Below are positions 7,717 to 45,300 of a DNA stretch of 64,000 bases, piece after piece (positions within the stretch are counted from its first letter, which is position 1; every line of letters begins with the position of its first letter). Origin of the DNA: Marsupella aquatica (lineage: Eukaryota > Plantae > Marchantiophyta); contig OZ316891.1 in NCBI GenBank assembly GCA_973895155.1, forward strand, positions 523,558-587,557. Direction: 5' to 3'. Under the pieces are notes generated by a model. It ran no database searches. It saw only the letters and a program-made list of their open reading frames with translations, and had not been told where the DNA came from. The position numbers and the translations under genes are program-made.

Positions 7717-9936
7717 GTCGAGCGCATACACATCGCTACACAACATACAACGTTTGTCACATACATCCAGACATAGTCACACTGTCACATCACAAACACA
7801 AGAGAGTGGAATACAAGTGGAACTCATGTCCACACATGTCCGTACAGTAGTAGAGTTTGAGCGATCTTTCAATGTAATCTTCTCAACAATCGGTACAACG
7901 ATCCTGGTCAATAATACCCCATCGATCCCGCACCGATCCGATCACATATGTATGTCAAGCCAACGCACCTTGCACTACTCAAGGAATCCACGTTACACAA
8001 GCGAAGCTCACAGCCACCATAGCCACAAGCTCCTCTCTCTCCAAGGCTCAACATTGAAAGATAACCTTTCAATGCCTCACAAGAGAGAAGTAACCTCTCA
8101 CACAAACCTAACGGAACCTTATCAACTCATATAGCACACATACCAAACATACGGATATAGATAGTACGATACACTCTAACACTACCTAGAATGGTGTGAT
8201 AGCTATCGTGCGCATACACATCGCTACACAACATACATCACTTGTCACATACATCCAGACATAGTCACACTGCCACATCACAAACACAAGAGAATGGAAT
8301 ACAAGTGGAACTCATGTCCACACATGTCCAAAACCCACAATCGCCCCCCTAGCTGGGAGTAAGGTCCCTAACTCTAGCTAGCCATGAGTTCTACAAGGTT
8401 GATATACACCTTTTTAGGTGTGAAGATTAGGAGGCCGGGTGCAAGTGAGCCCCATCGATCACCTACCTGCAATCCATATCTTCCAAGAGAACACAACCGA
8501 CAACTAGTCAGATTCACCGACATTGAGGACACAACCATGATCCACAGGAATCACCTGCAATCGATCACCTACCTGCAATCCATATCTTCCAAGAGAACAC
8601 AACCATGATCCACTAGGAATCACCTGCAATGGTGGTGTCAAACATGACATGTGTCATCCTCTAGAACACTTATCATAAATCAACATAGTAGCTGCTCCCT
8701 AAGCAGATCCACACAACATACACTTCAAGCTAGCACGAACATGTGCCAAGCTTGGATCTACTGTACCATCAATGTTGGGAAGGTGATATGGTGCACAGTT
8801 GCGCACATGATCCTTCCAAACCATACCATCGCGTCCCTCCAACATCAGGACACCAGAAGGCAACACTTCACGCACACGTAAGATTGTCCGGCTTGTAGTC
8901 ACATCAAGTGTCGTGGGTGCTGTCTGCTGCAAATAAACATAATCACCATGATAAAATTGTCGAATGCTTGCAAGGTAACCTCCTCCACGAATAGTGGCAT
9001 ACCTCAAAGTATCACGATGTTGGGCAATGGCAAGGTTGTCAAAAGCCATGGGCATCACTCTCTGAAATACCCGTGCTCTCTCTGAACACACCTTGACCCA
9101 AACATCAGGATCATCCAAGGTCACAATTGATGCAACATCACGAAGAATAGTCGCTGGCAAATCTGGCTCTCTACCATAGAGCAAAAAGTAAGGTGAGAAG
9201 GATGCAAGTGATGCTTGCCGACTGAAACGGTAGCCCATAGCTAACCAAGGTAGTTGGAGATCCCAATCTCCCAGATGACCAACCTGCAAGCCATACTTAC
9301 GCAATCATCTCTTCATAGTTTGCACCACTCTCTCAGCTAATCCATCTGTTTCAGGATAATCACGAGAGGTAGTACGATGATCAATCAGAGCTTGCCCACA
9401 CAAATTCTCAAACTCTCCACGGAACTCAGTTCCCTGATCAGTCAACACCTCAACTGGTACTCCAAAATGACTGAGTACACAATCCAAAAATCTGGCAACG
9501 CCACTAGCTCAATCCACTTGGAGAAGTGCTCCACCATGACCAAAACATATCGATTATGTCGTTGGGTAAGAGGTAATGGACCAGCAAAGTCCAATCTCCA
9601 TCTGTACCCCAAACCCATGATCGGCAATGGATGCAACTGGGGAGTGGGAGCATTAAATGATGCTCTCACTCTATCACATACCACACACTTAACTATCAAC
9701 TGTTGGACATGAGTGTGCATACCACGCCACCAATACTGTGTCTGCAGCAAGCTGTAAGTGCGCTTCACACCAAAGTGATCCAACTCCTCGTGCGCATGTC
9801 GCACCAAATGTACTCGTTGTGATGGTTTTGGTACCACCAACACCCTACCATCATGCAGTACTCTCAGAAGATGGTTTCCCTCCCATTGAAACCTCTTGGC
9901 TCTCTGTAGAACCCTGTCACGTTCTTTGGCGTTCAC
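7717..9936 (-). mobile_element. Ty3/Gypsy 3' fragment: integrase, PHD finger, PPT and LTR, inverted inside the Copia element
   Basis: Integrase zinc finger AHEELDHFG..YWWRGM..CVVC; LDFAGPLP; VLTDQGTEF; GLAERVVQT; SPYFLLYGREP. PPT (minus-strand AGGGGGG, ~8343-8351), then an LTR starting TGTGGGTTTT at 8339 and ending ..GTACGGACA at ~7837, then ~120 bp of a second LTR copy (7717-7836). Confidence 0.88.
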
Positions 9937-12741
9937 TTGGATGGTTCATGGGCTTGCCATTGCGATTGTCGTCTATGCTCAACAGGTGCGTGGTGCACAG
10001 AGAAACTTGAGTGATCTGCCATCTTCTACCGCACTGTCAAAGTAAATGAGAACGTATTAATTTGCGCAAACATGTGCTTGCTATCACCGGTAACGAAATC
10101 AAACTAAATCAAAATATTGAAAATTCGAGCAGCTATGTATACTGCTTTGAGAGTCATTGCCTAACTAGCAAACTTCCCCAGGATTCTTCTTCCATGATGC
10201 ACCACTCTCTTCAACTCAATTCCATACAACTTTTGGTTTTTTGAGAATACTTGGAAAATGACATAGAACCCTCAATTTAAGGAATACTGAATTATTAGAT
10301 TAATTCTAGTTTTATCTAAATATAATTAGGTAATGAATGATCAGCCTCTTCAACATTTTTGGAGATAAACTCTAAAACCTCAATGTTTTGTGGCAAGATT
10401 CTTATATAAAAGCATCACTACATTGTATCAAGTAACTCTTGATCCATTGTCAAATTCAATATTTAAATTGGGGTGGTACTAAATTGCTTCATATCATTAG
10501 GCAGTCGGAGACTCACATTATTTATCATCTTAATCTATTGTTCATTGTCTCAATGGTTTATTTCAGTTAAAGTCATGATTGTAAACAACTACAGAAACAC
10601 TGTGATAAGACTACAACAAAGACACGCACAGGGTGCGTAAATGAGCCTACAATCATGCAACCAATAATTAATTACATTCCTTTGGTATCTCTTGGTATTC
10701 CTTTATCTATAGTAGTCAATTAGTTAGTGGACCCCTTAGTTTCATGTTCTCCGGGTTATGTTGGTGGATGTGATCAGAGAGTTCTGCTGGTATTGGACCT
10801 TTTTCAGCTTTCAAGTATTTCTCTGTGCTTGTCCATGAGAAACAATTCCACTTTTGATACGTACGTGTTGCATTATTTTTGAGGTGCAGTGAGGGATCAC
10901 TTGAGATACTACAGAAACTCTGTGAGCACTTTGAATGGAGCAGAGAGTATGTAAATGTGTCAAGGTTCACATCTTCGTAATTATCATCCCCTTTAAGAAT
11001 CAACTGTTTGCAGCAACTTTCATTCTTTCGAATTCTCATACTAATGAACCTTAGATACTAGTCCGAGTACCAAAAGCTATCACCTCATGGAGGGAACCCA
11101 AGACCCATTCAATTGGTATCGATTGCAGTACCAAGTTGCATAGTCAGGTCGGTCTTAATCTGTGATCTAGACAAGCTTTCTAGATGGTCAAGAAAAGTTG
11201 GTTGTGAAGAGCAGGAGTCACAGACTGGGCAATGGCCGTTTGTGAAATTAGATTGGCTTTCCAGTAATAAGATCGAGAAAAGCTCAAGAGACAGACCAGT
11301 TTGATTGTCAATGAATATGTCATTTCGATGAATTGGCTTTGAAATACACTGTATAGTCTGGACGTAAGTAGGTCAATGCAGCCAAAGAATTGGAGTTCAA
11401 TCGCCTGCTCATTCAATCATCATCAAAATTGCAAACCTAACTTCGTGCATCTCCATTAATTCCATGACACCCTCGTTAGATTCGACATCTACTGCATACT
11501 TTCAGCATCCCACCTCGCCGGTCATAAGTTTTACAAAGCGAATGTCATGCATCGAGGCTGGTGAAAGAAAAATTGCAATCTCTCTATTTCTCTCCAAGTT
11601 CTAGGTCCCTAGGTTCTAAGTCTCTGTGCACTATCTCAATGACAAATCAGGATGGGCAGTTGGTTATGGTAACTAAAATGGTTATGTCAAATAAAATTAC
11701 ATTATGTTTTATGATATGGCGCCCTAGATTTTACCAAGAACTTGCCACAAACACGAAATTAGGAGTTATTTAAATTTGGAAAAAAGTTTGTTCTTGTTTG
11801 CAGCATGCCATGATGACATGGTGCACTGCGGAGTCTCGAATTTTGAAAGGGACCTCCAATGGGGTCCGTAAAGAGTTTCTTATGTTCTCTTGGTGTTCCT
11901 TTTTCCATGATAACCAAATGGTTTTTTACATTACCTTGGTAAATGTTACAATAGTTGAAGATTTTCTTTCTACCCATGGTTATTCCACAAATCGCTAATT
12001 AAATAGAAAACTCATACAATCTATTGGAAAACACTTATGTATCAATCACAACCCATCCAAAGGTTATTTTCTTTTACCCCCCTTTTCACCTCTTTCTTTG
12101 AATGTTTATTTGAAATGTTATTTTTCAGTTTTCAATTGTTTTTACAGTTACAAGGTCTAACAGTTGTTTGACTTGTTTCAACCACACATAGTATTATTTG
12201 GTGCCTTTTGTATAACAAATCATTCTTGTTTGTGACCAACTGATGTGAGTGCTCGTGCTTCCAGGGATTTTGGAAGGAACTTCCCATGAGGGTCCATAAT
12301 CAAGTCACCTCATACTCGCCATCAGAAGAACATTCCACCTCCTACCACCTACCACTTACCAGACTAATAGAGCAACCCCAGAACATCTACTGTAGCCATC
12401 CTATATAGAAAATCTGATTCCCCTCCGTGGAATCCATCTAAGTCTAATGTCCTCTACTATTTCTTTGGCTCAGAGCAGTGTGTTTAGGGTTTAGTGAGTG
12501 TCTTAGTCTTCTCTTTTGTCATGCTAATTAAATGTAAAGTCAAGAATTTAACTAAGTTGTTTGATTATTCTTTTCTCTTTTGTCATGTAATGCAGTCATT
12601 ACACTTTCATTCTTTTACTATTCACTTTTGAAAGATTCTTTTCTCTTTTTCAACTTAAAAAGTAGTTTAGTTAGGGTTTCCACTCACTCCCCTCTTATTT
12701 TCTTACTGTTCACTCTTGTATGAAATCACATTTTCTACTTT

Positions 12742-29630: not shown

Positions 29631-32600
29631 ATGGAAATTTTGGATATGGACCGCTTTAGGCAACACTCCGCAGCCAGGTATGATTAATTTTGTATATCAT
29701 TTTGTTGGATTATGATGTGACCATATCCTTGAATACATTCTCAACAAAGACGTTTGATTTGCAGAGTTCATCCTTCATCTTCCGGTTTGACTGGTATTGG
29801 CATCAGCCATTGTTCTTGTACAAGGCCTTCAGGTAATGAGACTGGAGCGATTTCAACGTTGTGCGTACCAACTTTTAAACAAAAACTCTTGTTCCAGCAC
29901 CACGGTGTGATATTTCTATTTGCGTGAATTCCTGCTATGAGGCTTATGTTATGAAGACTTGACTTGAACTTTAAGTTTGATTCTTCGTTCATCTCCAAGG
30001 AAGCACAGGGAAGGTGGGGTGGGGGGCTGTCACATTCATGTCATATGTGTCTGCCGACGGATTTTATAAGAGCCAATTTCAAGAATGCGGAATAGGCTTT
30101 ATTTCTGAGTTGTAGGAGAGGGAGGGGGAGTGCTTTCACATTCACGTCATATGTGCCTAATTACAGTGGATTCTCTAGAGCCAATCTACAGATGCTGGCT
30201 AAGCTTTATTTCTGAATTATAGTCTCCCTTAAAAACCCTGCGATTATGGTTTGTGTATTGCTTAGACAGGACAGTGTAGGGAACTTAAAAATGAACGCCT
30301 GCCAAGTTGCCCTAAGAGTCTATCCTATACACAAACCAAGGATAACATGTGACTGCTTGCTGAAGCTTTTTTAGGTGCCAATTCGACAGGCTCTTGACAC
30401 TGTCCTTTCTATGGTTACAGTGACATACCCGAGTATGAAGGAGCTTATTGATACTTGAGCTACCTGGATATGCCTTTCACAATTATTTCAGTATGCTATT
30501 CTAAGATCATTACATTCTTTACAGATAGCCGTTACTCTCAGTTGAAAAGGAGTCAGATAACTTTTGCAAGTTATGTGTACCAAAGATCACAGCAGAGCAA
30601 GGGAGACAATAAAACACATCTTTGGACGGAGGTAGGAATGCACCCTAGAACTCCAGAGACTTACCGGTCTGGTCTCTACTTTTGGACATGCATTGTAGAA
30701 GATCATTGGGAAACATAGTCCTCAAGAAATAAGAACCAATCCATTGCATGTCGGGGAATCTCCTGGTACCAGATCTGATCCTGCGTTGTGGTGCTGACAG
30801 AGGAGGCCCAGAGCTCCGGAGTTCAATCGTAAGATGACAAGAAAAGCAGTTTGGGTGGATGGATGGTCAACTCCAGCATGGGTTAAGGCAAGGGCGAATT
30901 TGATAACCCACTGCAGATTTCATTTTCATGTTAGTTATTCCACGAGAGATCGGTCTCAAGTCACTACAGAAGGGAATGGCAGTAGGCATATGCGTGATGT
31001 TGGTACCACTAGTGAAACAATTGCTGTTTTGAAAGATCGTCTACAGCGAGGCATTACTATCGACTCGTACACATATGTCAAAGTTCTGCAAATATGCTTG
31101 CAACAGAAAGACCTTTCGGCAGCCAAGCAAATTCATGATTGCATCATCCAGAGTGGAATGCAAAAGAATCCATATGTGGCAATCACGCTCTTGAATGTGT
31201 ATATCAAATGCGGAGGATTGTTAGATGCACGTCGAGTTTTTGATCAACTTGAGAAGAAGAGTGTTATTACCTGGAGCGCGATGATAGCAGGATATGCTAA
31301 CAGTGATTGTGCTGAATCTGTACCGGAACTTTTTAATCAGATGCGCCAAGAAGGCGTGCAGCCTAATGAGATCACATATCTGAGCATCTTGAAAGGATGT
31401 GCCAGCCCATTAGCTCTAACTTGCGGAAGAGAAATTCATGAGCGTATTCGACATGCCGGCTTTGAATCAGACGTTCGTGTAGGCACTGCCCTCCTACTGA
31501 TGTACGCAAAATGTGGGTGCATCACCGAGGCAAGGATAGTTTTTGAAAAGTTGACCAATCGAAATCTCATTACATGGAATATTATGATTGGAGCATATGC
31601 AGAGCGTGGTGATGGTGTGGAAGCATATCGACTGTTTCTACAAATGAGACGTGAAGGCTTCAAACCAGATGCATTTACTTATGCTAGTATTCTCAATGCA
31701 TCTGCACGTGAGGGGGCTTTGGAATGGGTGAAGGAAGTTCATGGCCATGCTAGCAAAGCAGGACTGGAGTCGGATTTGCGTGTGGGCAGTGCACTCGTTC
31801 ACATGTATGCACAGAGCGGTAGTATAGATGACGCCCGACTGGTTTTTGACAGAATGGGGAAACGCGATGTAGTCACATGGAATGTAATGATCGGTGCACT
31901 TGCACAACATGGATGTGGGCATGAAGCATATCGACTGTTTCTGCAAATGAGACGTGAAGGCTTCGAGCCAAATGCAATCACTTATGTGAGCATCCTGAAT
32001 GCATCTGCAAGTGCGGGTTCTTTGGAGTGGGTGAAGGAGGTTCATGGGCATGCTAGCAAAGCAGGACTGGAGTCAGATTTGCGTGTAGGCAATGCACTCG
32101 TTCACCTGTATGCAGAGAGTGGCAGTATAGATGACGCCCGACTGCTTTTTGACAGAATGGGGAAACGCGACGTAGTCACATGGACTGTAATGATAGGTGG
32201 ACTTGCACAACAGGGATGTGGGCATGAAGCATATCAACTGTTTCTCCAAATGAGACGTGAAGGCTTCGAGCCAAATGCAATCACTTATGTGAGCATCCTG
32301 AATGCATCTGCAAGTGCGGATTCTTTGGAGTGGGTGAAGGAGGTTCATGGGCATGCTAGCAAAGCAGGACTGGAGTCAGACTTGCGTGTAGGCAGTGCAC
32401 TGGTTCACATGTATGCAGAGAGTGGCAGCATAGCGGACGCCCGGCTGCTTTTTGACAGAATGGGGAAACGCGATGTAGTCACATGGAACGTAATGATCCG
32501 TGCACTTGCACAACATGGATGTGGGGATGAAGCATATAGACTGTTTCTCCAAATGAGACGTGAAGGCTTCGAACCAAATGAATTTACTTATGCTAGTATT

Positions 32601-34613
32601 CTCAATGCATCTGCAAGTGATGAGGGGGCTTTGGAATGGGTGAAGGAAGTTCATGGCCATGCTATCAAAGCGGGACTGGATTCAGATTTGCGCGTGAGCA
32701 GTGCACTGGTTCACATGTATGCAGAGAGTGGCAGTATAGATGACGCCCGACTGGTTTTTGACAGAATGGGGAAACGCGATGTAGTCACATGGAATGTAAT
32801 GATCGGTGCACTTGCACAACATGGATGTGGGCATGAAGCATATCGATTATTTCTCCAAATGAGACGTGAAGGCTTCGAGCCAAATGCAATCACTTATGTG
32901 AGCATCCTGAATGCATCTGCAAGTGCGGATTCTTTGGAGTGGGTGAAGGAGGTTCATGGGCATGCTTGCAAAGCCGGACTGGAGTCAGATTTGCGTGTAG
33001 GCAATGCACTGGTTCACATGTATGCAGAGAGTGGCAGTATAGATGACGCCCGACTGGTTTTTGACAGAATGGGGAAACGCGATGTAGTCACATGGACTGT
33101 AATGATCGGTGCACTTGCGCAACATGGATGTGGGCATGAAGCATATCGACTGTTTCTCCAAATGAGACGTGAAGGCTTCGAGCCAAATGCAATCACCTAT
33201 GTGAGCATCCTGAATGCATCTGCAAGTGCGGGTTCTTTGGAGTGGGTGAAGGAAGTTCATGGGCATGCAAGGAAAGCGGGACTGGATTCAGATTTGCGTG
33301 TAGGCAATGCACTGGTTCATATGTATGCAGAGAGTGGCAGTATAGATGACGCCCGACTGGTTTTTGACAGAATGGGGAAACGCGATGTAGTCACATGGAA
33401 TGTAATGATCGGTGCACTTGCACAACATGGATGTGGGCATGAAGCATATCGGCTGTTTCTCCAAATGAGACGTGAAGGCTTCGAGCCAAATGCAATCACC
33501 TATGTGAGCATCCTGAATGCAGCTGCAAGTGCGGGTTCTTTGGAGTGGGTGAAGGAGATTCATGGACATGCTAGCAAAGCGGGACTGGATGCAGATTTGC
33601 GTGTAGGCAATGCACTGGTTCACATGTATGCAGAGAGTGGCAGTATAGATGACGCCCGACTTATTTTTGACAGAATGGGGAATCGCGATGTAGTCACATG
33701 GACTGTAATGATCGGTGGACTTGCACGACATGGATGTGGGAATGAAGCCCTGGACCACTTTAAAAAATTGACCTTGGACGGTGTGAAGCCCAGCGTGTAT
33801 TTATTCGTGGCACTGTTGTCAGCCTGTTCTCACGGAGGCCTTGTTGATGACGGCCGTAGAGTCTTTTCAGCTATGACGCAGGATTATGGCATCGAGCCTG
33901 ACATTGTGCATTATAACTGCATGGTGGATCTTCTTGGGCGGGCTGGGCACTTGGAGGAAGCAGAGCTCTTCATTAGTGACATGCCAATTGAACCAAATAC
34001 AGTTACTTGGACAGCCTTCCTTGGGGCTTGTAGAACTTATGGTAATGTGGAGTTGGGCGAACGTGCTGCTCAGGAGCTTTTCAAGCTGAACCCCAATAAT
34101 GCCCCTGCATACGTGCTCCTCTCCAACATCTACGCTGCAGCTGGTAAGCAGCAGAAGAAGTCATTGGTGCGCACTACGATGCAAGACAGAGGTATTCGGA
34201 AGGAGCCAGGGCGTAGCTGGATTGAAGTTGATAAGAAGATCCATGAATTTGTTGTAGGGGATAGATCTCACCCAGAAGCGAGGGCGATATATACGGAGCT
34301 CAATAAACTGACTGAAAAGTTGAAGGCTGAAGGCTACATTCCGGATACCCGACTTGTGTTGCACGACATCAATGAGAAGGATAAAGAACTAGCTCTTTGC
34401 TCTCACAGTGAGAAGTTGGCTATTGCTTACGGACTTATGCACATACCTCGGGGAAAACCAATTCGTGTATGGAAGAACCTTCGGGTGTGTTCAGATTGCC
34501 ATACCGCAACCAAATTTATGTCTAAGGTGACCGGACGCGAGATTATAGCCAGGGATGCCAATCGCTTTCACCATTTTAAAGATGGCAAATGTTCTTGTGG
34601 CGATTACTGGTGA
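29631..34613 (+). CDS. PLS-class PPR protein with E1-E2-DYW domain, a putative organellar C-to-U RNA editing factor
   Basis: Main exon 30801-34613 holds 29 L/S/P motifs, E1/E2, PG box PGRSWIEV, HSEKLA, CSDC and terminal DYW. Three upstream exons (~29631-29677, 29765-29832, 30524-30630) join in frame through GT-AG introns; these are less certain. Confidence 0.93.
31620..33740 (+). repeat. Seven near-identical 303-bp coding repeats (L-S-P triplets)
   Basis: The unit ALEWVKEVHGH..DLRVG.ALVHMYAESGSIDDARL.FDRMGKRDVVTW.VMIG.LAQHGCGHEAY.LFLQMRREGFEP is repeated. The variant tttacttatgctagtattctc recurs at 31674 and 32583, 909 bp (3 units) apart. Confidence 0.97.
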
Positions 34614-35270
34614 CCAGATTGAAAGTTGTGTTTGAAAGTGACTCGAAAGCCAATAAAGAACAAATTAAAGCACTGTATTCTGTCAGTTTTGCGGAAGTTT
34701 GTGAAGCGCAAATTAGAGAGGGGATACATGAGTAGAGAGCTGGCCCCTTTTGGCTACTGTCTACTCCCTAAAAAGACACCAGGTTAAACCAACATTGCAT
34801 TAAGGCTCTCCAGCCTTCTTGGGGCCCTACCCTGCCCCTCACAAATCCTGATGTTGCTACCCGCAAGCCCGCTTGAATGCCAATCATCGTTCTGGTGGAA
34901 TCTAAATTGATTAGCCCCCAATTGGTCGACAAACTGAACTTTCGTCCTTTTCAAATTCGACGCTCTTTAGGGTGCGGGACACACCTAGCCTTGAACACTC
35001 GCATTTCCCTCTGTCTTCGTCCCTCATTGTCATTCTCAGCTTTTGTCATTGTCATGTCACGCTTCTGGAAATACTTGATGTGCAAGACATAGTGTTCTGT
35101 TGTTGTCACATTTTCATATGCGCTAGCTTTCTGCCCAAAGGTTATGCGCACAGGAGCTCTTGTTTCTTGTCATCCCGTGCTATCAATGCATGCAATTTTG
35201 TCTTTTCAGTTAAGACCCATTGGGATTGTGTCCTTTCACTGTACATATCTTTTTTTACATTTTCTTTAGC

Positions 35271-35697
35271 ATGGATTGTGTCAACATTGTGATTCAGGAC
35301 CCTCCTTTTGGGAAGTTGTCCTCATTGCCAGTTGTTTGGACTCTTAATCAGACTGTCATTCCTTGGGATGGCCTGACAGACTTTAGGGATGTGGAGGGCA
35401 AAAGAGATTTTAAATTTGAGACATCTGTTTATATTAGGACTCAAAGAAATCAGATTTCAAGAACAAAGATTGGGTAGAGTATAAGATAATCTGGTGTTCT
35501 TATGGCCCGCAAGAAGACAATGTAGATCTATGTGTTCCTCATCTCCAAGGGACACATCCAAAGTCAGAAATTGGGAGCAGCCCCGGTCTATGCAAAAATA
35601 ACTTCAAGAATCATGCAAAAATGAATTGTTCATGCCACTTCATTGCAAAAAGATTCAAGATAAACCCTGACACTGTTCAGATCACCTACACTAACAG
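35271..35697 (+). pseudogene. Mutator-like (MULE/SWIM zinc-finger family) transposase N-terminal fragment
   Basis: MDCVNIVIQDPPFGKLSSLPVVW..IPWDGLTDF, a frameshift, then EYKIIWCSYGPQED..GSSPG..KMNCSCHFIAKRFKINP..ITYTNR|GT. Matches my recollection of the N-terminus of plant SWIM/MULE proteins (VQNPP..W..IP..YWCSFGPE..GCTCHFVVKRL). No DDE or SWIM part is visible. Confidence 0.72.
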
Positions 35698-35814
35698 GTA
35701 CAGACTGCCTTGTGACTCAAAATGAACTTCTATGACTCTTTTCCGGAGTGAACTACATATGGAGGTCTTACAAAGGAACCTAAAGTTTGCTCGTAAAACC
35801 CTTTGCCCTTTTAC

Positions 35815-36130
35815 TGACTAGCTGCTCTAGAACCAACCGCCTCACCCCTACAAAGAATGGTAAATGCCTAAACACTCTGAACTGCAACTGACACCTGCTG
35901 TCAAAAAAAGGTTGTGATGACAAACACCTGCGATAAGGCCTTTGCTCCATGTAAAGAACACCACATGATCGCAGGAAGCAGTTGAAGGTTGGGTGTAGAG
36001 CCCCCAAAACCTCAGCAGCAAACCGGTAGAAGAGATCGGAGGGGTAACGCACAGCGTAGGCCTCTTCCTTCAGTCGTGTTGCCCTCGTTGCGGCATGACC
36101 AGGAACATGACCAGCTGCAGCAAGATTGGC
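35815..36130 (-). mobile_element. CRE-like non-LTR retrotransposon 3' fragment (restriction-like endonuclease C-terminus)
   Basis: PGHAATRATRLKEEAYAVRYPSDLFYRFAAEVLGALHP followed, after a frameshift, by FF*QQVSVAVQSV*AFTIL. This fits the REL pattern AA..K..KY..F.PFAVE..G...RQRVSIALQ. Confidence 0.7.
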
Positions 36131-36962
36131 CTTTGACAATGTTTTTTTCCAACACATTGGCTGCAGATTCCCATATTTGCCAAGCAGGCCGAAAGGGTCC
36201 ATGTCATGGTAGACTGCCTTGGGAGCAAAGCTGAACATCAATTTGTAAATAATGTAAACAAGGGACCGCAAATAGCAGAATGATCTTGAATTAAGTTCTA
36301 ATTTATAACATAACTTTTCACAGATCTGGGAAGAAATGCAGTTCTTGTAACGCCTTCAAAGTGGGACCACTGACCAGAAAGAACAACGCAAGTACTGCTG
36401 CCAATATTGACATTTTTGGGAAATTTATGGTAGGGTAGGAATATTCACTAGCCACTGGGGCCGGCTCTCTTCTTTTGTTTCCCCTTTCACATCTGCACTT
36501 CCGAAACTTTGAACATGCCATGGGCCTAAAATTGCTCTTTAATTCACTTCGATAGTGTGAGATTGCGCTAAGGGATAAAACCAGTTTGGCCAATTTGTTT
36601 GTTGAAGCATCAGACACCAGTCTTCAAGGTTTAGGGAATACACACTAGCAAGGGGCCAGCCCTCTCCTCATGTAACCCCTCTCCCATCTGCACGTCCGAA
36701 ACTTTGCAGTCTTGACATAATCCATTTCTTTAAGATTATTACTTACTTGAATTCAAAATGGAGTGAATTTGAGTTAGAGGGACAATTCCAGTGAGTGAAC
36801 CAATCGACACGCCTATCACTGAAATAAGCAAAAATATCAGTAGCCAATTAATTCAAGGTGAATAACTGAACAGAACTTTTCCCCAGACAATTGGTATGAG
36901 TGAGAGGATTTGGAATGAGACAATAATTATAAGTACATTATTCCAGGTCAAATTTATCGTGG

Positions 36963-39300
36963 TCATATTTCCCATCCGGAGCAGGATCTATAGTTCTTCC
37001 ACCACTCGATCCTGCAAGTAAACTCATCATCTGAATCCCCGTCCTCCAATGGCTCAGTACCCATCACACTTTTGATGTCTTTAATTTTCTTATGACAATC
37101 AAGAACCAACTTCAAAGACTCCTGCGTAGCATCATGGAGAAAATCCCTATCCCTCAACCCCAGCTACAAAACTCCCTAAGAGTTCCCCCGCTCGGAATGA
37201 ACTCCCATCTCCAACATTCCAATCTAGCACAATGTTTCTTGGCTTGTCGAAAGGTCCATCATCGCCTGCATGAATGAATCCAACACATAATTAACCCTGC
37301 AAAAGCTAATTTTGTCTTGAAATTGCTTTTTGGGTAACAAAGACTCAGTAACTTCTTATGAGATGCATCCTCAAATGTTGCCAAGGGGATGCACTTCGGG
37401 TCCTTGGGGATCTTCCCATCAAATTCAGCCCGACAAAACACATGTAGACTGAGATTGCAAACCTGGAAAAGAGACAAAACATGTCAAATACTGAAGCTGT
37501 GAAGGCCAGCGACCTCGCTAATGAAAAATGCCCTTCATTTAAGCCACAAAGTAACAAGTTCTCACCTCAACATCGATATTTGGCATCCACATAGGGGAAC
37601 CCAACAAAATAGATGTTTGAATTTATTCCTCTACTCAATGGCAGCAAAAATCTGTTTCATGTGATTAAATTCTCCACTATGGAGAACAGCCACATACCCA
37701 ACATCAGCCTCATGACTCCAAAGAACCTGAATTTAACTCGTTGCAAGAAGTCTTCAAACTCATCACGTATATCAAGAACAAGTGATGCCTTGTTCTTTTA
37801 TGAGGCTGAAAGGACTCAAGATTCAGGGACACTGAGAATCATCTTTGAAACAGCTTCAGACAAAAGAGATCTAGCAATCGACTCTACCTGTTCCCACATA
37901 GCCCACATGTGCAGCCAGTTTAGTCTCACTATCTAAGAATTGCCCTGGATGGAAATATTGTTTCTGGAGCTTGGGCTTGCACTGCGCTTCAAGTAGATTA
38001 CAACGAAGCAGAGGGCGAAGTGATGTTACCCAGGAGAAAAGCCTCGCTTGATCAAGGCCACATGAGACATTGCCTCTCCCCTTGTCATCCGTCGTTTGTG
38101 CTTCCTTCCGTTCTTTCTCACAATAGTTGTGCATCTCCACATATTTCTTAAAGAAATCCCCAAACTCGTGATTGACAAGAGGAGCAATTTTTGGAACTTT
38201 AATGTTCCAATCAGAGAGCTGCTCCTTCATTATTTCTCACAGCGCAATGTCCTTTGCAGATTTTGACAAAGGTTCTCCAAGTTCCTCCTTGAGCGCAAAC
38301 TTCTTCTGCAATCTGGGAAGCTATGTTTGCAGCCGAAAGAATATAAATGCAAGCATCCAGTGTCATATTTTTTGAATACCAGGAGGGTTTCTTCATGTTT
38401 TGCATCTTCCGTTGGAACAACTTGAAATTCCCTCGATCAATCAAATCCTTGTAGACCGATAAGTCAGTGTTTAGGGTTTTTCTGGACCCGAACTTCTGGA
38501 CCCGATCTGCTTCAAGGACCCATGAATTGTCAACGTGGCATTGAGTCAACCTGTCAATGAACGAAAGTATCAAAGACCTTTCGAGTACAAAACAGAGATA
38601 AGGGAAGCCCGAAATGTAAAGTCAAATACTTAATTCAATGAATAGGAACAGATCGGGTACTCACCAATTCAGGGCATGCATAGCAGATTCAATCTGCACG
38701 AATGTGTCCTTCTCGCCTTGGAAAATCTTTGAGACAACACGAGGATGACATTCGATATCATGAGGATTCTTGATGGCAAGCAGATTCCACGAGTACAGAC
38801 GATGATTTCCGTCAAAAACATAAAACACTTTGTCCTTCAACACAACAAAATCTGGATGAGAATCACACTCTCTCGAAATCTTCATTTTGCAATGCCCATA
38901 TCGGATCCCAGCCCATTTGAATTGTGTCATTGATGAACTGAACGTCACCATTCTCATTTTGTCATCTGTACCTGGGCGTGTCCCCAATGTAACCCTGAGC
39001 TTGAAACTCATTCTTGAGAGTCTCGATTGCATTGGAGTCAGTTTGCAGCAACCTCACGAGCTGCATGTTTTGCATCCGACATAGTGGAATTCAAGGGGGA
39101 ACAAGCTTATACCCAAATTTGTTTAGCCCAAAGTGGTAAAGGGTGATGGTTGATCACCATGGAAAAAGGTTCCCGGAAAGGTTCTGACTTAGAAGAGTCC
39201 ATCGATGGTGGAAAAATCGGACGAGGAGTCTCCAAATCCAAAGCTAGTGCCTTGTTGGTAGTCGAAGACCTCATCTCTCGACACTGAGAAGCTGCAGGCT
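36963..39300 (-). pseudogene. ParB/sulfiredoxin-like domain fused to an N6/N4 DNA-methyltransferase-like fold; intron-containing and frameshifted
   Basis: IPLCRM..VR..LKNEFQAQGY (from 39090); KVFYVFDGNHRLYSW (DGNHR at 38799-38813); GT-AG introns 38551-38664 and 37463-37565; ASLVLDIRD (37762-37788); ADVGYVAVLHSG (37673-37708); MMDL..KPRNIVLDWNVGDGSSFRAGELLGSFVAGVE (core 37198-37236). The 5' boundary is approximate. Confidence 0.68.
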
Positions 39301-39780
39301 GTGAAACTTGGGGGGCAGAAGTCTTGGTGTCGACGGGCTGGGTTGGCGAGCCTCAACCATTCTGCCTGAAAATCTGTGTGGTGGGCAGCAACGCCTGCTG
39401 GGGGAAGGCAGGGGGCATCACCATTGTTTTATGGAACATGCTTTAGGCAAATCAGACGGTCATGAGGACATCTTTTGCGCATTGAGTGGAAGATATTGGA
39501 TCCGAAAACATTCAAAACTAGTGTGTTTATCAACGCACAAAATCATCACCATATAGACCAGATACGAAAAGGGCATTTTGTACTCACATGACATGACTTC
39601 CACCACTCTTGTGAAAGGCATTATTCATATTGTTTCAAAAATTAGAGCTACAATTTTGTGTTTTTCACCAAATTTTGTGAACTCTTACTTTGTTGTACTT
39701 AGAATTTGTTCCTCAATGCCCAAAGAGGCATGGCTCTGTTGTGTGGGCATCGTTATGTGGTAATTTTCTGTGGTAATTCA

Positions 39781-40040
39781 CTTGAGAGGAGACTGATAGT
39801 TCTTTGGGTTCAAATGTTATGATTGACTGCCTTTGTGTGGTAGCTCACCCGAGAGGAGACTGATAATTCTTTTGGTTCAAATGTTGTGATTGATTGTTCC
39901 TTACAATTTTGGTTCAAATGTTGTGATTGATTGTTCCTTACAATTCACAAGAGAGGAGACTTCATAGTTCTTTTGGTTCAAATGTTATGATTGATTGTCC
40001 CTTATAATTACTTGGGTTCAAATGTTGTGATTGACTATTC
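39781..40040. repeat. Tandem array of five GGTTCAAATGTT(A/G)TGATTGA motifs, three preceded by GAGAGGAGACT
   Basis: Copies at ~39807, 39874, 39911, 39975 and 40015. Confidence 0.9.
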
Positions 40041-40267
40041 TTTTGAAACCCCAGACTTCCCTCAAAATTATTGTTTTTGCATCTGAATTGATATGTGTGG
40101 ATCACAGATTTCCCTCAAAAAATTATTTTTAAAAAATTTTAAATTTTTGTTTGTACGTTAATTGATGAGCATATGGGTATGTACCTCTACGTTAGGAGTT
40201 TTTACAGGCTGTGGACCATAGCTTCCCAGAACAAATTCTTTGTAATGCTTATTTTCTAGTATGATTT

Positions 40268-40575
40268 GTTCACTCAACGTCCTAATTTGATGCCACTTGG
40301 CGATCAGAATGCCCAAGAGTTTGTGCTTTGGAAGCTTGCATGGCCTCCAAACACAAATTCGTTGATTACTTACTGTCCTGACTTATCCACTCAACAACGC
40401 CCTCCAATATCACATGGCGATCAGAATGCGCAAACGCGGCCAAGTACCTCCGGGAATGAGATACAAGTTTAATAATACACAGATGGCACAATTGCACACT
40501 CTAACAACGCCCTGCTTTGATGTCACAGGGAGATCAGTATGTGCAATCACTGCCAAGTACCTCAGGAGATAAAAG
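40268..40575. repeat. Three degenerate ~110-bp repeats
   Basis: cactc..caacg.cct..cac.tggcgatcagaatg.(caa..gccaagtacctc.gg) at ~40270, 40387 and 40496. Confidence 0.75.
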
Positions 40576-41546
40576 TATACTATACCATACACAAAAAATT
40601 GAAACCCAGCCTTCCCGTGAAAGCTTCACTTTAGAAAGAAGCGGTCCTCCGTTCGACTTGCTACTTATCACCCCAATCTGCAATATCTTCCAGCTAGGAA
40701 TCTTCCTGCATTTTATCTGTCTCCAGCAGAAGGGCATGCAAGCTGCATCGAGAGATTGCCATGAAAACAAGAGCTCATTGATACCTTCATTGAGAGCTTT
40801 GCATTTTTAAATACTACGAGCTTTATTTCAGAAGCAAATTTCCAAGAAACAACTCGAGTTCTGGCAAAAGCTGCTTTCTGTGGCATGAGTATCTTGTAGC
40901 TTGGGAACTCCTGAACTGCTTCAAGTAAAAGATGGACTGCGCAATCTTTGGATTAAGATTTATCGGTGCAGCGTGTCTTGTACTACCAGTTCAACCGGGC
41001 AAGACAAGTAGAGGGTTCTTATGCAAACTTACCCAATTAATTGTTGGAAGTCTACCCTACATGTTTCGCGAGAGTTCTGCATAGTGTTGACGACACTGCT
41101 TTACTTAATCACCCAGAATAGTCACTGGCTGTATCTGCGCGATTCACCTCAAGCCACGGGCGGTACTATACTTGGTAGTCGAGCTCACGAGGAGATGTGC
41201 AGTACAGTACACAGAAGTTCACGATGGTATGAGGGAACAAACTTAGCACCAAGTCCTGCTGGAACCAAAAGATGGACACCGTACAAAAAAGGAATTGAGA
41301 AAGATAGCGTCACAAAAGCTGTTTCTGTTGCCACGAGGGACTTAAAACCAGATTTCTCCTGGGTTAGCCTTGATCTAATACGACATACACAACGAAGGAA
41401 TTTCTACACTGATCTCTGAATCTGCTTGAAACAACTTGTTCCAGGAGCTTATGGCATCGTTTGCTTTCTTTCCAACGTTAGGAGTGACAGGAAACTAGAT
41501 TCCCAGAAAAAACCTTTTTTGGTCAATGATGTCTTGCACGAATTGC

Positions 41547-42389
41547 TCACATCGAATTGATCATTTTTTTCAGAATTTTCCGTTTTTGTCGATCTTCCAC
41601 CTGCAACGCTCTTTCTGTAAGAACTTGCTTCAAACGGCACATTGACTTACGCACCTGGCAATAGACGGACATTACCCGTAAGTCCACATTCCCAAATTAT
41701 CATTATCCAAGATTCTACACAAGGAAATTATTCCACTCACTACTCCGATGAACAGGAAGACCGTTACCTTTGACATTCGTTCTGGATTGGGCATTCGGAG
41801 GCTTTGCGACAGCAACATCTGCTTTTGTGAAAGTAGCATGTTCTTTTCCTTTAGAAACACGTACCACAGCTTGTGCAGGTCGTCCCACGACTTTAGTCTC
41901 AATTCAGATGCTTTCCAGCCTCTGCCTGCAACAAAAAACACATCGGACATGACGAAACACGATGATCTGACCCAGAAACTACCTCAATTGATCTTACAGT
42001 TCACGGAGTCCATAGCACAAGTGTTACACGAAGACATTCAGCTCTCGTGGAGGCTACATCACTGGAAAAAATCTGTTGGGGTAACTTTCCTACTTGGACG
42101 GAAAAAATTGAGCGATCTAGACCTTACCCACAAGAAATTATCCAGCTCGGTTAGGTGCTACACTTAAAAAAAAAAAACTCCATTAAATCACTGGTACCAT
42201 AGTTAGAGGAATCAAAGGAACGAGCGATTTGAAAAGGGCACGGGAGATACCGTAAACAATCTTCTTATCAGACGCGGGATCTCGGCCACTCTCGAAAAAT
42301 TCTGCCAGTCCGCCACTCATAGGCCGGACTGCTGTACGAGTATGCGCTGAAGCCACCACAGGTCGCAGCAAAGTCCTAAAAGCCTGCAT
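41547..42389 (-). CDS. MRPL47: Mitochondrial ribosomal protein L47 (uL29m), 3 exons
   Basis: Exons ~42389-42251, 41925-41768 and 41654-41547: [63 protein letters not shown]. Confidence 0.93.
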
Positions 42390-45300
42390 TTTGTACTAAA
42401 CTCTCGTTCGATCTATCTCCTGTCAAAGCAATTACTACCTAAGAGATTTCCTAGGAGGGCTCTCCCTAACAATATTGCTCTCCGTCCGTCAGCAGGAGAA
42501 ATCGCAACCGACACGGTAAGAAACCGGGCGAAAAACATAACCCTAATTTTGTTCAGTTGCTTGTTTGACCATTGAAACCAGGAGTCCCAATTGCTGTAAA
42601 GATGTTCAAGTGACCTGCAGGAGTCATAGTTGCAGAAATTTTAGTGCGTCAAATTCAATATCACTGTAGGCCTGAAAAGCCCGTGCAGAGAAAGGGTTTC
42701 GCAAAGCTGAGAGTTCTGTGGTGAGCTTTGATAGAGTGCTTAGCCCCTGCCTCTTCTTCTAACTGGACACTTTCATTTGCGTAGATGAGCCCTAGATGGT
42801 CCTTTATGGTCAACTAATGAGATACCCTGACAATTGAAAATTCTCAAAAATACAATTTGCTCTTTTTGGTACATAGGATTATTCTAGCCCAATGCGAGTG
42901 CATTCAAGATACAGAGACAAAAACAAATGCAGGTGAATCAAGGAGGTTGTGAAGGTGGTTGGTGAAATCTCTTATGTGCGGGAGATATCTTCTGTGTCAT
43001 TGCTACTACGCTCTTGTTGTGACCATGCAGAAGTCTGGCTATTTTGGTTGAGTGATTATTCTTGCAAAAACGTTATCAATTTCTTTAATGTTGTTGTTGG
43101 GAAGGGCAAGAGGAGACGGATAAGAGTAGTCTTAACATCACAAAGTCCAAGCACTATTGGTTGACAAGAGGAATAATTAATTATTTCTCTATTTATTATG
43201 TCTTTTGTTTTGTTTTGTTGTTTCTTTTCCGTTTCCCCTGTTATTTTTTTTCCATTGAGGTCAGGAATAGGGTAGCTTGGGACAGGTGGGTAGATGTGAC
43301 AATTCAAAAAAACTTTATTTTGGGGAAGGGCCAGGTTGATAGCCAGATGAAACTAGGCATTTTCTTGGGTTGAGAGTTATTATGTAATTTCATCTACTAC
43401 TCTGATAACTAATCTGGCCAGTTTTAGTCTCTCCTCATGTTACAAAAGTGAAAAAGGAGGGAACAATGCTCAGCTGCCACATATTGTCTAGAATTATTTA
43501 AGGCTTTTGGATTGAGTGAAATTAAATTATTTAAGACTCTTGGGTTGAGTTAAGATTGGTTCTAAGTTATAATACAAGGTATAATATGTCCTAGAGTACT
43601 TGAATGTGTTACTGTAGGTATTTTTTAACTTGTTTATAATACCTTTTGGAATGGAGCATTAAAGTGAAATAGATTGACTTGAGATCATGGTTTTTGGCAT
43701 GGAGCTAGCACTAAGGGGAAGTTGACATAAGATTGTTTTTGGCTTTTGCTCTTAAAAAGGAGATTTCAGTTTTTGGAGGTTAATTGTCTTTCCCAATTTT
43801 TACTCTTTTTAATGGTGTTGAAGAAGAGAAAAAGGAGGAGCGGGAAGGACTAGGCACTAGGAGGGCAAGAGGGGTAATTAAGCACAAGGAAAGTAAGGGA
43901 GAGGATGGGAGAGGGAAAAACACGGAGGCCAAAAATAAATAAAAAGTTGGGTACAAGAATTTTGGTACAAGAAAACACAGGATGACAACCAGCCTTGGGT
44001 GATGTTTGTGAAAGACGACAATGAAACAGGAGAGGATCGGCTATTACAGTAGTTGCAGATTCGTACTTGTGGTAATCAAATGTGGTAGTGCCGTAATTGC
44101 AAACTAAGCTTGATTCAACCTAACTGTAGTTGGGAACAAATTCTCAAGTCAAATGGGCACTCCCATAGACCGAGTGCCATAAGGGGAGTACAGCACAAGG
44201 AGAGGTAAGGCAAATATGGAAGATCAACTCTTCGGCTTTATTTATGGCCACCACCATCACTAACACTTAAGATCATAGATACTATACTCAGACCATGTAA
44301 ATCCGTGCCTTCTACAATGAGCCGAGTTTTCCGAGACAGGTGGATAATTGGAGCACTACTGTAGATTTTACGTTTTGGATCATGGAGTTTCTGGTCGTTA
44401 CAAGATTTTGTACTGCTGTTAATCAATCATTTTGGCCGACTTCCGGAATTTTCTGCCGTAAATATGAAGTGGACTTGTCGAATTTTATCAAGCTTCAACT
44501 GGTTCTTGAGAGTCTTCTCAAAGCATGAAGTGACGGTAAGGGCGAATCACGTAGAGACTCGTGGCTTCGTCCGAAAATAAAGGTCGACCGGTATGCAAAT
44601 ACAATTATCGAAACAGAGCACAATTTGATTGTCGTCAAGTTAAACCTGCGTTGATAACACGTCGCCAGATAACAATGAGCCGCACATCAGATTTGTGTTT
44701 TAGCCAGCAGGACATTTTCTTCATAATCATGTCGAACCAATGGAACAGGTACTACAAGGGAAATATGATTCCAACTTGATCTGGCAAGACGAATGCGAAT
44801 ATCAGACGAGGACATACAAATTGGTCAAAGCAAGCATAGAAACGATGGAACAAATGCATAATCGTAGCACCTGGACTCTGAATAGAGTGGTAAAAAACAC
44901 TGCATTAGGTGAGATAAAGTAGCATCATCATCTGAACAGCCCAGGATTCTTCAATTTCAAGTTGAAAATAGAATCACGTTGACAGAATGCAGACAGCGTA
45001 TGTAACTTTTTAATCCCCATTGATATGGCTCTGATGCTAGAACACAGCTGTACGATAGGAACTTTACCATCAGATTAGGCTCTCTATGCCTAAATCCAAT
45101 AACAGTCAGGATCAAGTTTTCCCTCCCTGGTCAAGCTAGGGCATAACAATGTTATAATTGCCTATCAAATTGCTGAAGATTGGACTGCAACAACTAAGCT
45201 CGCAGGCTTAGCTCACATACAAGTGAGCTACTATGATAAGACTGGAGAGACAGGACGAGGTACTGAGAAGCAAGTTTGCGAAGGCCCTTACGAGTCTCCA

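What the first reader, a model, noticed from the sequence alone, without database searches (positions are those of the whole stretch)
35271..40620. Candidate Mutator-like transposon carrying a ParB-DNA methyltransferase accessory gene
Seen: a MULE/SWIM-family transposase 5' fragment (+, 35271-35697) and a ParB-MTase-fold gene (-, ~36963-39300) point towards each other. Both are decayed, they sit between two intact host genes, and two tandem-repeat arrays lie at the ParB-gene end. Known: maize MuDR has convergent mudrA/mudrB genes, and Arabidopsis VANDAL MULEs encode VANC anti-silencing proteins that bind arrays inside their own element. Inference: these are remains of one element family whose second gene is a bacterial-type DNA-binding and methylation-related protein, possibly for self-marking or counter-silencing. 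I am not aware of a description of such a MULE. I found no TIR or TSD, so co-membership is not proven.
Basis: partly seen in the sequence, partly recalled or inferred. Interest (0 to 1): 0.86.

Follow-up and report, generated by a model that had tools for sequence, protein, structure and literature searches.

The report
Dead ParB-methylase gene beside Mutator fragment
This plant DNA holds a broken copy of a many-copied gene that joins a bacterial-style ParB domain to a DNA-methylase-like domain that is likely inactive; it lies tail to tail with a probable Mutator transposase fragment, and the two likely, but not provably, came from one jumping element of a design described so far in algae.

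Summary
The ParB-methyltransferase gene is real. It has three exons (-, ~39350-36960), with stops, frameshifts and a ~420-codon internal deletion that removes the catalytic motif IV. Its family gave 47 named hits in liverwort, fern and lycophyte genomes; one Adiantum cluster has 23 members at 90% identity, spread over at least 9 chromosome-scale contigs, as expected of a mobile gene. The ParB motif is invariant, but 0 of 29 scorable models carry a DPPY-type motif, so methylation is doubtful.

The + strand piece is a multi-copy coding fragment whose frameshift is absent in other copies. Its Mutator identity rests only on weak FAR1/ZSWIM3-type look-alikes and on recall; the DDE core is missing.

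Co-membership could not be tested. No genome was held, no TIR or TSD frames both genes, and a ~140-bp inverted repeat brackets the transposase fragment alone. I put one element at about 0.55.

ParB-methylase accessory genes are already reported on Ectocarpus Sola elements, and related genes on red-algal Plavaka and Mutator elements. My searches found no land-plant report. Verdict: new variant of a known kind, a dead copy.

The parts
30798..34613 (+). Flanking host gene: PPR (PLS)-E-E+-DYW frame with seven 303-bp repeats, open throughout
34635..34777 (+). ~140-bp unit, left arm of an imperfect inverted repeat; either a decayed TIR or PPR 3' flank sequence
   Evidence: joints
35271..35697 (+). 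Probable first exon of a Mutator-like transposase (predicted WRKY-GCM1-type DNA-binding part only), frameshift near 35440
   Evidence: look-alikes; other copies carry +1 base at 35440
35698..35969 (+). Continuation shared with other copies (possible intron and second exon); a second copy or allele diverges after 35969
   Evidence: tables 2, 5c, 8
35970..36437 (.). Near single-copy spacer; overlaps a 191-codon - strand frame (36355-35780) with no Pfam or PDB hit
36438..36770 (-). Two copies of the ~140-bp unit (36770-36620 and 36560-36438), inverted relative to 34635-34777
36963..37462 (-). ParB-MTase exon 3: C-terminal methyltransferase part with degenerate SAM-binding motif I at 37251-37165
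   Evidence: (only hit in 64 kb, E 0.0045)
37463..37565 (-). Intron 2, GT-AG, 103 bp
   Evidence: other copies differ over 37479-37559
37566..38550 (-). ParB-MTase exon 2: helical region, then a deletion junction at ~37720/37705 (about 420 codons lost, including motif IV), then a short methyltransferase segment
38551..38664 (-). Intron 1, GT-AG, 114 bp; same position in metagenome loci L003 and L004
38665..39350 (-). ParB-MTase exon 1: low-complexity N-terminus and ParB/Srx domain with DGNHR; frameshifts near 39110-39140 and 38870; 5' end approximate
39765..40047 (.). Tandem array 1 (units of 37-101 bp), shared with other loci that vary in unit number
   Evidence: tables 2, 5, 5c
40280..40620 (.). 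Degenerate array 2, three units of 113-117 bp, near single-copy at 80% identity
41550..42395 (-). Flanking host gene MRPL47 (3' exons; end approximate)

Best explanation
The - strand gene is a dead, internally deleted copy of a multi-copy seed-free-plant gene for a ParB-domain protein fused to a likely inactive DNA amino-methyltransferase fold, and it was likely the accessory gene of the same Mutator-like transposon whose probable transposase 5' end faces it. SHOWN: gene structure, decay, domain make-up, dispersed multi-copy family, invariant ParB motif, non-canonical motif IV. INFERRED: that the gene is transposon cargo (~0.85); that this transposase fragment was its carrier (~0.55). PROPOSED MECHANISM (untested, ~0.4): in intact copies the protein loads on the element's own upstream arrays through a nucleotide-gated ParB domain. 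The methylase fold would serve as a DNA-gripping or base-flipping module rather than a writer. It would keep the element accessible against host 5mC silencing or help assemble the transposase on its ends, as VANC does for VANDAL and TnpA for Spm.
For: Family: 29 hits and 47 named hits: 31 Riccia sorocarpa models on 8 contigs, 14 Adiantum, 1 Selaginella, 1 Diphasiastrum. One Adiantum cluster at 90% identity has 23 members; the 15 listed lie on 9 chromosome-scale contigs. Fold: an AlphaFold model of family member P0005 (pLDDT 88.9) best matches ParB/Srx-fold chains (KorB Z 7.8, rmsd 2.6, 95 aligned; PadC Z 6.8; ParB-CDP Foldseek E 0.048). The family profile hits DpnA (E 8e-9) and CcrM (E 2e-8) in the PDB; PF01555 is above cut-off in 3 of 47 models. 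DGNHR is invariant in 18 of 18 aligned exons, whereas 0 of 29 scorable models have [DNS]PP[YFW]. In contigs of four public runs, both coding regions and array 1 attract many related contigs while 35914-36693 and 40074-40593 are near single-copy. Other copies carry indels at 35440 and 38867 that undo this copy's frameshifts. In run X1 the collapsed related contigs have similar depth over both genes (about 115 versus about 100-155, against 20-23 for unique DNA). Precedent for opposite-strand ParB-MTase cargo: Ectocarpus Sola1-1_Ec32 (PMC12477816, passages read).
Against: No TIR or TSD frames both genes; direct repeats at candidate ends were at chance level. A ~140-bp inverted repeat encloses the transposase fragment but excludes the ParB gene. 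In runs X2, X4 and X5 depth over the ParB gene exceeds depth over the transposase exon several-fold, and X5 shows no multi-copy relative over 35394-35653 (the tool warns that summed depth is no copy number). The Mutator call is weak: Atlas recognition 2009, below the 2300 guide, with the FAR1 row at 0.89; no homolog. The methyltransferase pieces are modest on their own: 1 of 58 control tiles beat the 5.3-bit hit. The single Diphasiastrum locus is a Myb fusion with 7 isoforms, so at least some members may be host genes.
Confidence: 0.5

Rival explanations
1. Two independent insertions side by side: a ~2.1-kb deleted Mutator-like element (about 34635-36770, bounded by the inverted unit) and a separate element, non-autonomous or of another superfamily, that carries the ParB-MTase gene and its arrays.
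For: The inverted unit at 34635-34777 and 36770-36620 brackets the transposase fragment only. Depth is higher over the ParB gene in 3 of 4 runs. In algae the same kind of cargo rides on Sola, Plavaka/EnSpm and Mutator elements. Two Adiantum models (P0066, P0071) start with a motif I recall from CACTA TnpA-like proteins.
Against: No 8-11-bp TSD around 34635-36770. The unit is near single-copy in the runs, and contigs at single-copy depth join the PPR 3' UTR to 36622 on the - strand, so it may be PPR flank rather than a TIR. The CACTA-like motif got no Pfam hit. A chance convergent neighbour within 1.3 kb in a gene-rich window seems uncommon (my estimate, not computed).
Confidence: 0.35
2. Intact family members are active N4C/N6A methyltransferases with a variant motif IV that mark their own element.
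For: Fern and lycophyte models keep a DxFAGxG-type SAM motif and PF01555 hits. The first motif-IV residue (D) and a downstream PxWN are conserved. The Ectocarpus paper proposes self-modification.
Against: 0 of 29 models keep the aromatic residue of motif IV, whereas the active Marchantia DN4MT1 enzymes have TSPPY (bioRxiv 2021.02.12.428880, passages read). Motif I is degenerate in some Riccia models and in this copy.
Confidence: 0.2
3. The gene is a pseudogene of an ordinary host gene family expanded by duplication, with no tie to transposons.
For: It has spliceosomal introns at conserved positions. The Diphasiastrum locus looks like an expressed host gene. No carrier transposase was seen next to any homolog, because no context could be fetched.
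Against: Near-identical copies on many chromosomes, many of them truncated or split. Multi-copy coding and array sequence with near-unique DNA beside it. Published algal counterparts are TE-borne.
Confidence: 0.1

Closest known systems
ParB-like plus N4C/N6A methyltransferase accessory gene of Ectocarpus Sola1-1_Ec32 (PMC12477816; passages read, figures and supplements not seen)
   Same: Same two-domain order and similar size (1104 aa; full-length plant models here 1000-1200 aa); opposite strand to the transposase; self-binding or self-modification proposed.
   Different: Here a land plant and a probable Mutator-type neighbour instead of Sola-1; motif IV is non-canonical in all plant models scored; sequence homology to the Ectocarpus protein was not tested.
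Plavaka accessory genes PAG2/PAG3 of Bostrychia, with homologs reported on Chondrus crispus Plavaka and Mutator elements (bioRxiv 10.1101/2025.02.11.637652; passages read, supplements not seen)
   Same: A ParB-like gene next to tandem arrays and a PF01555 methylase gene inside DNA transposons, including Mutator.
   Different: There ParB is fused to a 2OG-oxygenase and the methylase to SET, in separate genes, and the arrays are of inverted repeats; here ParB and methylase are one gene and the array shows no folding signal (z 0.69).
Arabidopsis VANDAL/VANC and maize MuDR mudrA/mudrB (VANC: search listing, abstracts and passages; convergent mudrA/mudrB layout recalled)
   Same: A Mutator element with a second gene; VANC binds non-coding regions of its own element and counters silencing.
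   Different: No sequence relation to VANC or MURB was tested or is expected; anti-silencing here is analogy only.
Marchantia MpDN4MT1a/b 4mC methyltransferases (bioRxiv 10.1101/2021.02.12.428880; passages read)
   Same: Beta-class amino-methyltransferase fold of prokaryotic type in a seed-free plant.
   Different: DN4MT1 has the catalytic TSPPY and a host sperm function; this family lacks that motif, has an N-terminal ParB domain and is dispersed in many copies.
Bacterial ParB/KorB/Noc CTP-gated clamps and beta-class methylases DpnA, CcrM
   Same: Predicted fold and GxxR-type motif; profile hits to DpnA and CcrM.
   Different: Low sequence identity in the fold matches (6-21%); no relative found in prokaryote genomes or viral contigs by pattern scan; no HTH identified.

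Membership tests
Mutator-like element (MULE) | DDE transposase of the MULE family (PF10551), often with SWIM finger | tested here: inconclusive
   Only a ~140-codon 5' piece remains; no Pfam hit, no homolog; Atlas look-alikes FAR1 0.89, ALS2CR8 0.88, ZSWIM3_N 0.84. Likeness to plant SWIM/MULE-type proteins is recalled, not tested.
Mutator-like element (MULE) | Long TIRs, or a non-TIR subtype (PMC6446971) | tested here: inconclusive
   No inverted repeat between 34.6-35.3 kb and 39.4-40.8 kb. A ~140-bp, ~70-76% inverted unit brackets 34635-36770 only; its origin is unresolved.
Mutator-like element (MULE) | 8-11-bp target site duplication | tested here: inconclusive
   Direct repeats at five candidate end pairs were at or below chance and none sat outside inverted ends; true ends are unknown and the copy is decayed.
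Two-gene element (transposase plus ParB-MTase in one unit) | Repeated co-occurrence in other copies within shared ends | not testable with these tools
   No genome held; the 4 metagenome loci are 1.2-1.8 kb; Logan contigs are too short to bridge the genes.
ParB/Srx-fold domain | ParB-N fold with GxxR nucleotide-binding motif | tested here: met
   DGNHR in the window and in 18 of 18 aligned exons; family model matches KorB Z 7.8, PadC 6.8, Srx 6.4 (Z under 8, so middling alone); Atlas first hit 0.95 with PF02195 in 11% of members.
Beta-class N4C/N6A DNA methyltransferase | Motif IV before motif I on a PF01555 fold | tested here: met
   Family profile hits DpnA and CcrM; motif order as expected in full-length models; window keeps motif I region and an upstream segment.
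Beta-class N4C/N6A DNA methyltransferase | Catalytic [DNS]PP[YFW] motif IV | tested here: not met
   0 of 29 models matching my pattern, out of 73 screened, have it (DFPS, DFPT, DMPT, DIPT and similar). The 29 include 7 isoforms of one locus and 11 near-identical Adiantum copies. Deleted in the window copy.
Algal ParB-MTase transposon accessory genes (Sola1-1_Ec32 type) | Homology to the algal proteins and residence inside a defined element | not tested
VANC-type anti-silencing factor | Sequence-specific binding to own arrays and local loss of methylation | not testable with these tools
   Needs binding and methylome experiments.

The most novel reading that the evidence does not exclude
Seed-free land plants harbour an ancient family of Mutator elements whose second gene is a bacterial-style CTP-gated ParB clamp fused to a pseudo-methylase. 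It loads on the element's own tandem arrays and shields it from host methylation: a third, prokaryote-derived anti-silencing solution beside VANC and TnpA, and one that has been domesticated at least once (the Myb fusion in Diphasiastrum).
Probability: 0.27. Interest if true: 0.78.

Novelty: new variant of a known kind. Interest (0 to 1): 0.5.

Why it matters
ParB-type clamps and beta-class methylases are bacterial tools, and their use as transposon cargo is proposed in print only for algae in the papers I could search. A large family across liverworts, ferns and lycophytes, with young near-identical copies in a sequenced fern, makes the idea testable in plants with assemblies and methylomes. 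It also bears on reading 4mC/6mA in seed-free plants: the many 'DNA methylase N-4/N-6' annotations in these genomes may be non-catalytic transposon proteins. This particular copy is dead, so its value is as a pointer to the family.

Tried and rejected
Pfam on 16 local ORFs: 0 hits. Word-based homolog search with the window's ParB exon: 0 of 28 candidates; the exhaustive HMMER search found the family instead. Homolog search with the transposase fragment, meant to compare Riccia locus tags with those of ParB-MTase genes: 0 of 7 candidates, so that test failed. Pattern scans: ParB alignment 0 of 19 viral and 0 of 10 prokaryote-genome candidates; transposase fragment 0 of 35 prokaryote-genome candidates, and 1 of 2 viral candidates passed tblastn but no locus was returned. 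The single-sequence model of the transposase fragment had pLDDT 46.8 and its fold search (best Z 4.5) is uninformative. No RNA holder was listed. Run X5 was laid in the hope of an empty site; it holds the locus as a slightly diverged allele at low depth. Motif scans for WCS[YF]G, CxCHF or a SWIM-type pattern in 81 family proteins found none, so no fused transposase among them. The first C-terminal HMM step failed and printed stale rows; it was redone (weak, E 0.12). One search used wrong intron 2 limits and is superseded. The idea that the right-hand inverted unit follows a lost PPR copy found no DYW remnant. Rfam: 0 hits. Array 1 does not fold better than shuffles and has no excess of perfect palindromes beyond one AT tract. 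The 191-codon frame has no Pfam or PDB hit. The ParB-domain tree (39 rows) puts the window copy with liverwort and unnamed rows at 90/93 support, with no starred clade. Literature: 10 full-text searches listed no paper on a land-plant ParB-methylase transposon gene. The library lacks most subscription papers, Repbase Reports and Iyer et al. 2011, which the Ectocarpus paper cites for green-algal examples. Iyer et al. 2016 (PMC4738411; section 8 and passages read) describes other ParB-linked clades in chlorophytes, chytrids and haptophytes; its supplement was not seen and may list this family.
Full report
SETTING. The window is intron-bearing plant DNA with INTS7, a PPR-DYW gene, MRPL47, GUN4 and LTR remnants. 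A seed-free plant, probably a bryophyte, is inferred from where the homologs lie. No assembly was held. The finding sits in the 7-kb gap between the convergent PPR (stop 34613) and MRPL47 genes.

THE MINUS-STRAND GENE. Pfam saw nothing in the local ORFs (0 of 16). An exhaustive HMMER search with the 130-codon frame 39053-38664 found 29 relatives (15 at E up to 1e-10), nearly all ending at the same place, which is intron 1. An alignment of 18 of them found 47 longer proteins among 7994 candidates scored: 31 from Riccia sorocarpa, 5 Adiantum capillus-veneris, 9 A. nelumboides, 1 Selaginella and 1 Diphasiastrum; a Calypogeia protein turned up. A profile of 25 of them maps five collinear segments on 39105-37723 and nowhere else in the window. 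With both GT-AG introns left out, the window aligns to Riccia P0106 residues 129-581 (score 399; best of 5 shuffles 41) and 1003-1201 (score 65; best of 30 shuffles 45), with 8 stops and 8 frameshifts in all. The two blocks abut at 37720/37705, so about 420 codons are gone, including motif IV.

DOMAINS. The N-terminal domain is ParB/Srx-like. DGNHR is invariant in 18 of 18 rows. A model of member P0005 (pLDDT 88.9) is matched first by KorB, PadC, sulfiredoxin and a plasmid ParB-N (Z 7.8-6.0) and by ParB-CDP (Foldseek E 0.048). These scores are middling singly, but the top rows agree. The C-terminal domain has a beta-class amino-methylase fold: profile hits to DpnA and CcrM; PF01555 above cut-off in 3 of 47 models and below it in 2 more. 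In the window, a motif I profile hits once in 64 kb, at 37251-37165 (E 0.0045); a Riccia-only profile gave 5.3 bits, beaten by 1 of 58 control tiles. Of 73 proteins screened, 29 had a scorable motif IV and none reads [DNS]PP[YFW] (the 29 are not independent). The family thus conserves its ParB nucleotide pocket better than its methylase active site.

IS IT MOBILE? One Adiantum cluster at 90% identity has 23 members; the 15 listed lie on 9 chromosome-scale contigs and include split and truncated models. The 31 Riccia models lie on 8 contigs. In four public runs laid on 34614-42400 at 80% identity, summed depth over 36954-39293 is 149-405 in X1 against 16-31 in the spacer and about 20 at 40074-40593; the other three runs show the same shape. 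Other copies match the exons, differ in the introns, and carry indels such as +2 at 38867 that undo this copy's frameshift. Array 1 is also shared, with different unit numbers at other loci. The tool warns that depth is no copy number; I use it only to say multi-copy versus near-unique.

THE PLUS-STRAND FRAGMENT. It starts at ATG 35271, shifts frame near 35440 and reaches a possible donor at 35698. Other copies have an extra base at 35440 that keeps the frame open, and related contigs cover 35134-35913. Its identity is weakly supported. The ESM Atlas lists unnamed fungal clusters (0.93, 0.90), then FAR1 (0.89), ALS2CR8, ZSWIM3_N, AFT and GCM, with recognition 2009, below the tool's guide. That these are WRKY-GCM1-type domains found at the N-terminus of Mutator transposases is established knowledge, recalled, and FAR1 at the N-terminus of MULEs is tabulated in PMC6446971 (passages read). 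A homolog search, two pattern scans and a structure model added nothing usable. No DDE or SWIM part survives.

ONE ELEMENT OR TWO? For: adjacency within 1.3 kb, convergent layout like Ectocarpus Sola1-1_Ec32, comparable decay, and similar depth of collapsed related contigs in X1 (about 115 versus about 100-155). Against: no TIR or TSD for 34.6-40.6 kb, and higher depth over the ParB gene in X2, X4 and X5, with no multi-copy relative of 35394-35653 in X5. Also against, a ~140-bp unit at 34635-34777 recurs inverted at 36770-36620 and 36560-36438, enclosing only the transposase piece. That unit could be a decayed TIR, but it has no TSD, is near single-copy, and contigs at single-copy depth in all four runs join the PPR 3' UTR to 36622 on the other strand. 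It may therefore be PPR flank; a DYW remnant beside the right copy was not found. An earlier, unchecked note (e1-9727448) reports a Mutator-like element with such a gene in another genome, head-to-head in 9 of 21 copies. I could not test it; it raises the plausibility of a Mutator carrier but does not match this orientation and is not counted as support. I estimate 0.55 for one element.

HOW IT MOST LIKELY WORKS. Intact copies would make a ~1100-1200-aa protein: disordered N-terminus, ParB/Srx nucleotide-binding domain, helical region, long linker, methylase fold. By analogy with ParB and KorB (CTP-gated loading at specific sites; recalled) and with VANC and TnpA, I favour a self-binding regulator that loads on the arrays upstream of its own gene and either holds off silencing or helps transposition, with the methylase fold as a non-catalytic DNA-binding module (~0.4). 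Active self-methylation through a variant motif is the rival (~0.2). No binding, expression or activity was shown; array 1 has no folding or palindrome signal.

WHAT IS KNOWN. A 1104-aa ParB plus N4C/N6A methylase gene on the strand opposite the transposase is described in Ectocarpus Sola1-1_Ec32, with self-modification proposed (PMC12477816, passages). Bostrychia Plavaka elements carry a ParB-oxygenase gene beside arrays and a methylase-SET gene, with homologs reported on Chondrus Plavaka and Mutator elements (bioRxiv 2025.02.11.637652, passages). Marchantia DN4MT1 is a different, catalytically intact enzyme. Ten searches listed nothing on a land-plant version; subscription papers, Repbase and several supplements were out of reach.

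VERDICT. Observation partly confirmed, interpretation partly supported. A real but dead member of a large, apparently undescribed seed-free-plant family of a known kind of transposon cargo; the Mutator link is likely but untested. Interest 0.5.

Noticed in passing
window 40801-40878 (+): A 78-bp plastid rpoC2 fragment inserted in the nuclear intergenic DNA: PDB hits to plastid RNA polymerase beta'' (E 5e-6), and very deep contigs continue into rpoC2 on both sides.
   Followed up: yes
window 30798-34613 (+): PPR-DYW gene with seven 303-bp PLS units at 91% identity, a recent internal expansion; many paralogs attract contigs in the runs.
   Followed up: partly
window 36355-35780 (-): A 191-codon stop-free frame in the spacer, protein-like in its middle part, with no Pfam or PDB hit; possibly a captured fragment or chance.
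   Followed up: partly
window 39353-39766 and 39970-40197: Contigs in X2, X4 and X5 skip these stretches, so the array region is length-polymorphic among alleles or copies.
   Followed up: no
P0069 and P0096-P0101 (Diphasiastrum O6H91_08G053900): Single locus with 7 isoforms fusing an N-terminal Myb domain to the ParB-MTase, with a well-kept SAM motif: a candidate domesticated member.
   Followed up: partly
P0066, P0071 (Adiantum capillus-veneris): Gene models join the ParB-MTase to a C-terminal NIF/FCP1-like phosphatase domain and begin with a motif recalled from CACTA TnpA-like proteins (no Pfam hit); may mark a different carrier or be model fusions.
   Followed up: partly
window 34743-38534: In run X1 this stretch is at about half the unique depth and a contig with 43 differences and 39 gap letters covers 37667-38534, suggesting two diverged haplotypes or a close duplicate.
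   Followed up: no
window 6240-9945: A copia-type gag and pre-integrase remnant on + and an integrase zinc-finger remnant on -, i.e. two LTR retrotransposon relics facing each other.
   Followed up: no
window 35271-35970: CpG is strongly depleted (observed/expected 0.20, against 0.53 in the ParB gene and 0.70-0.93 in host genes), as expected of long-methylated transposon DNA.
   Followed up: no
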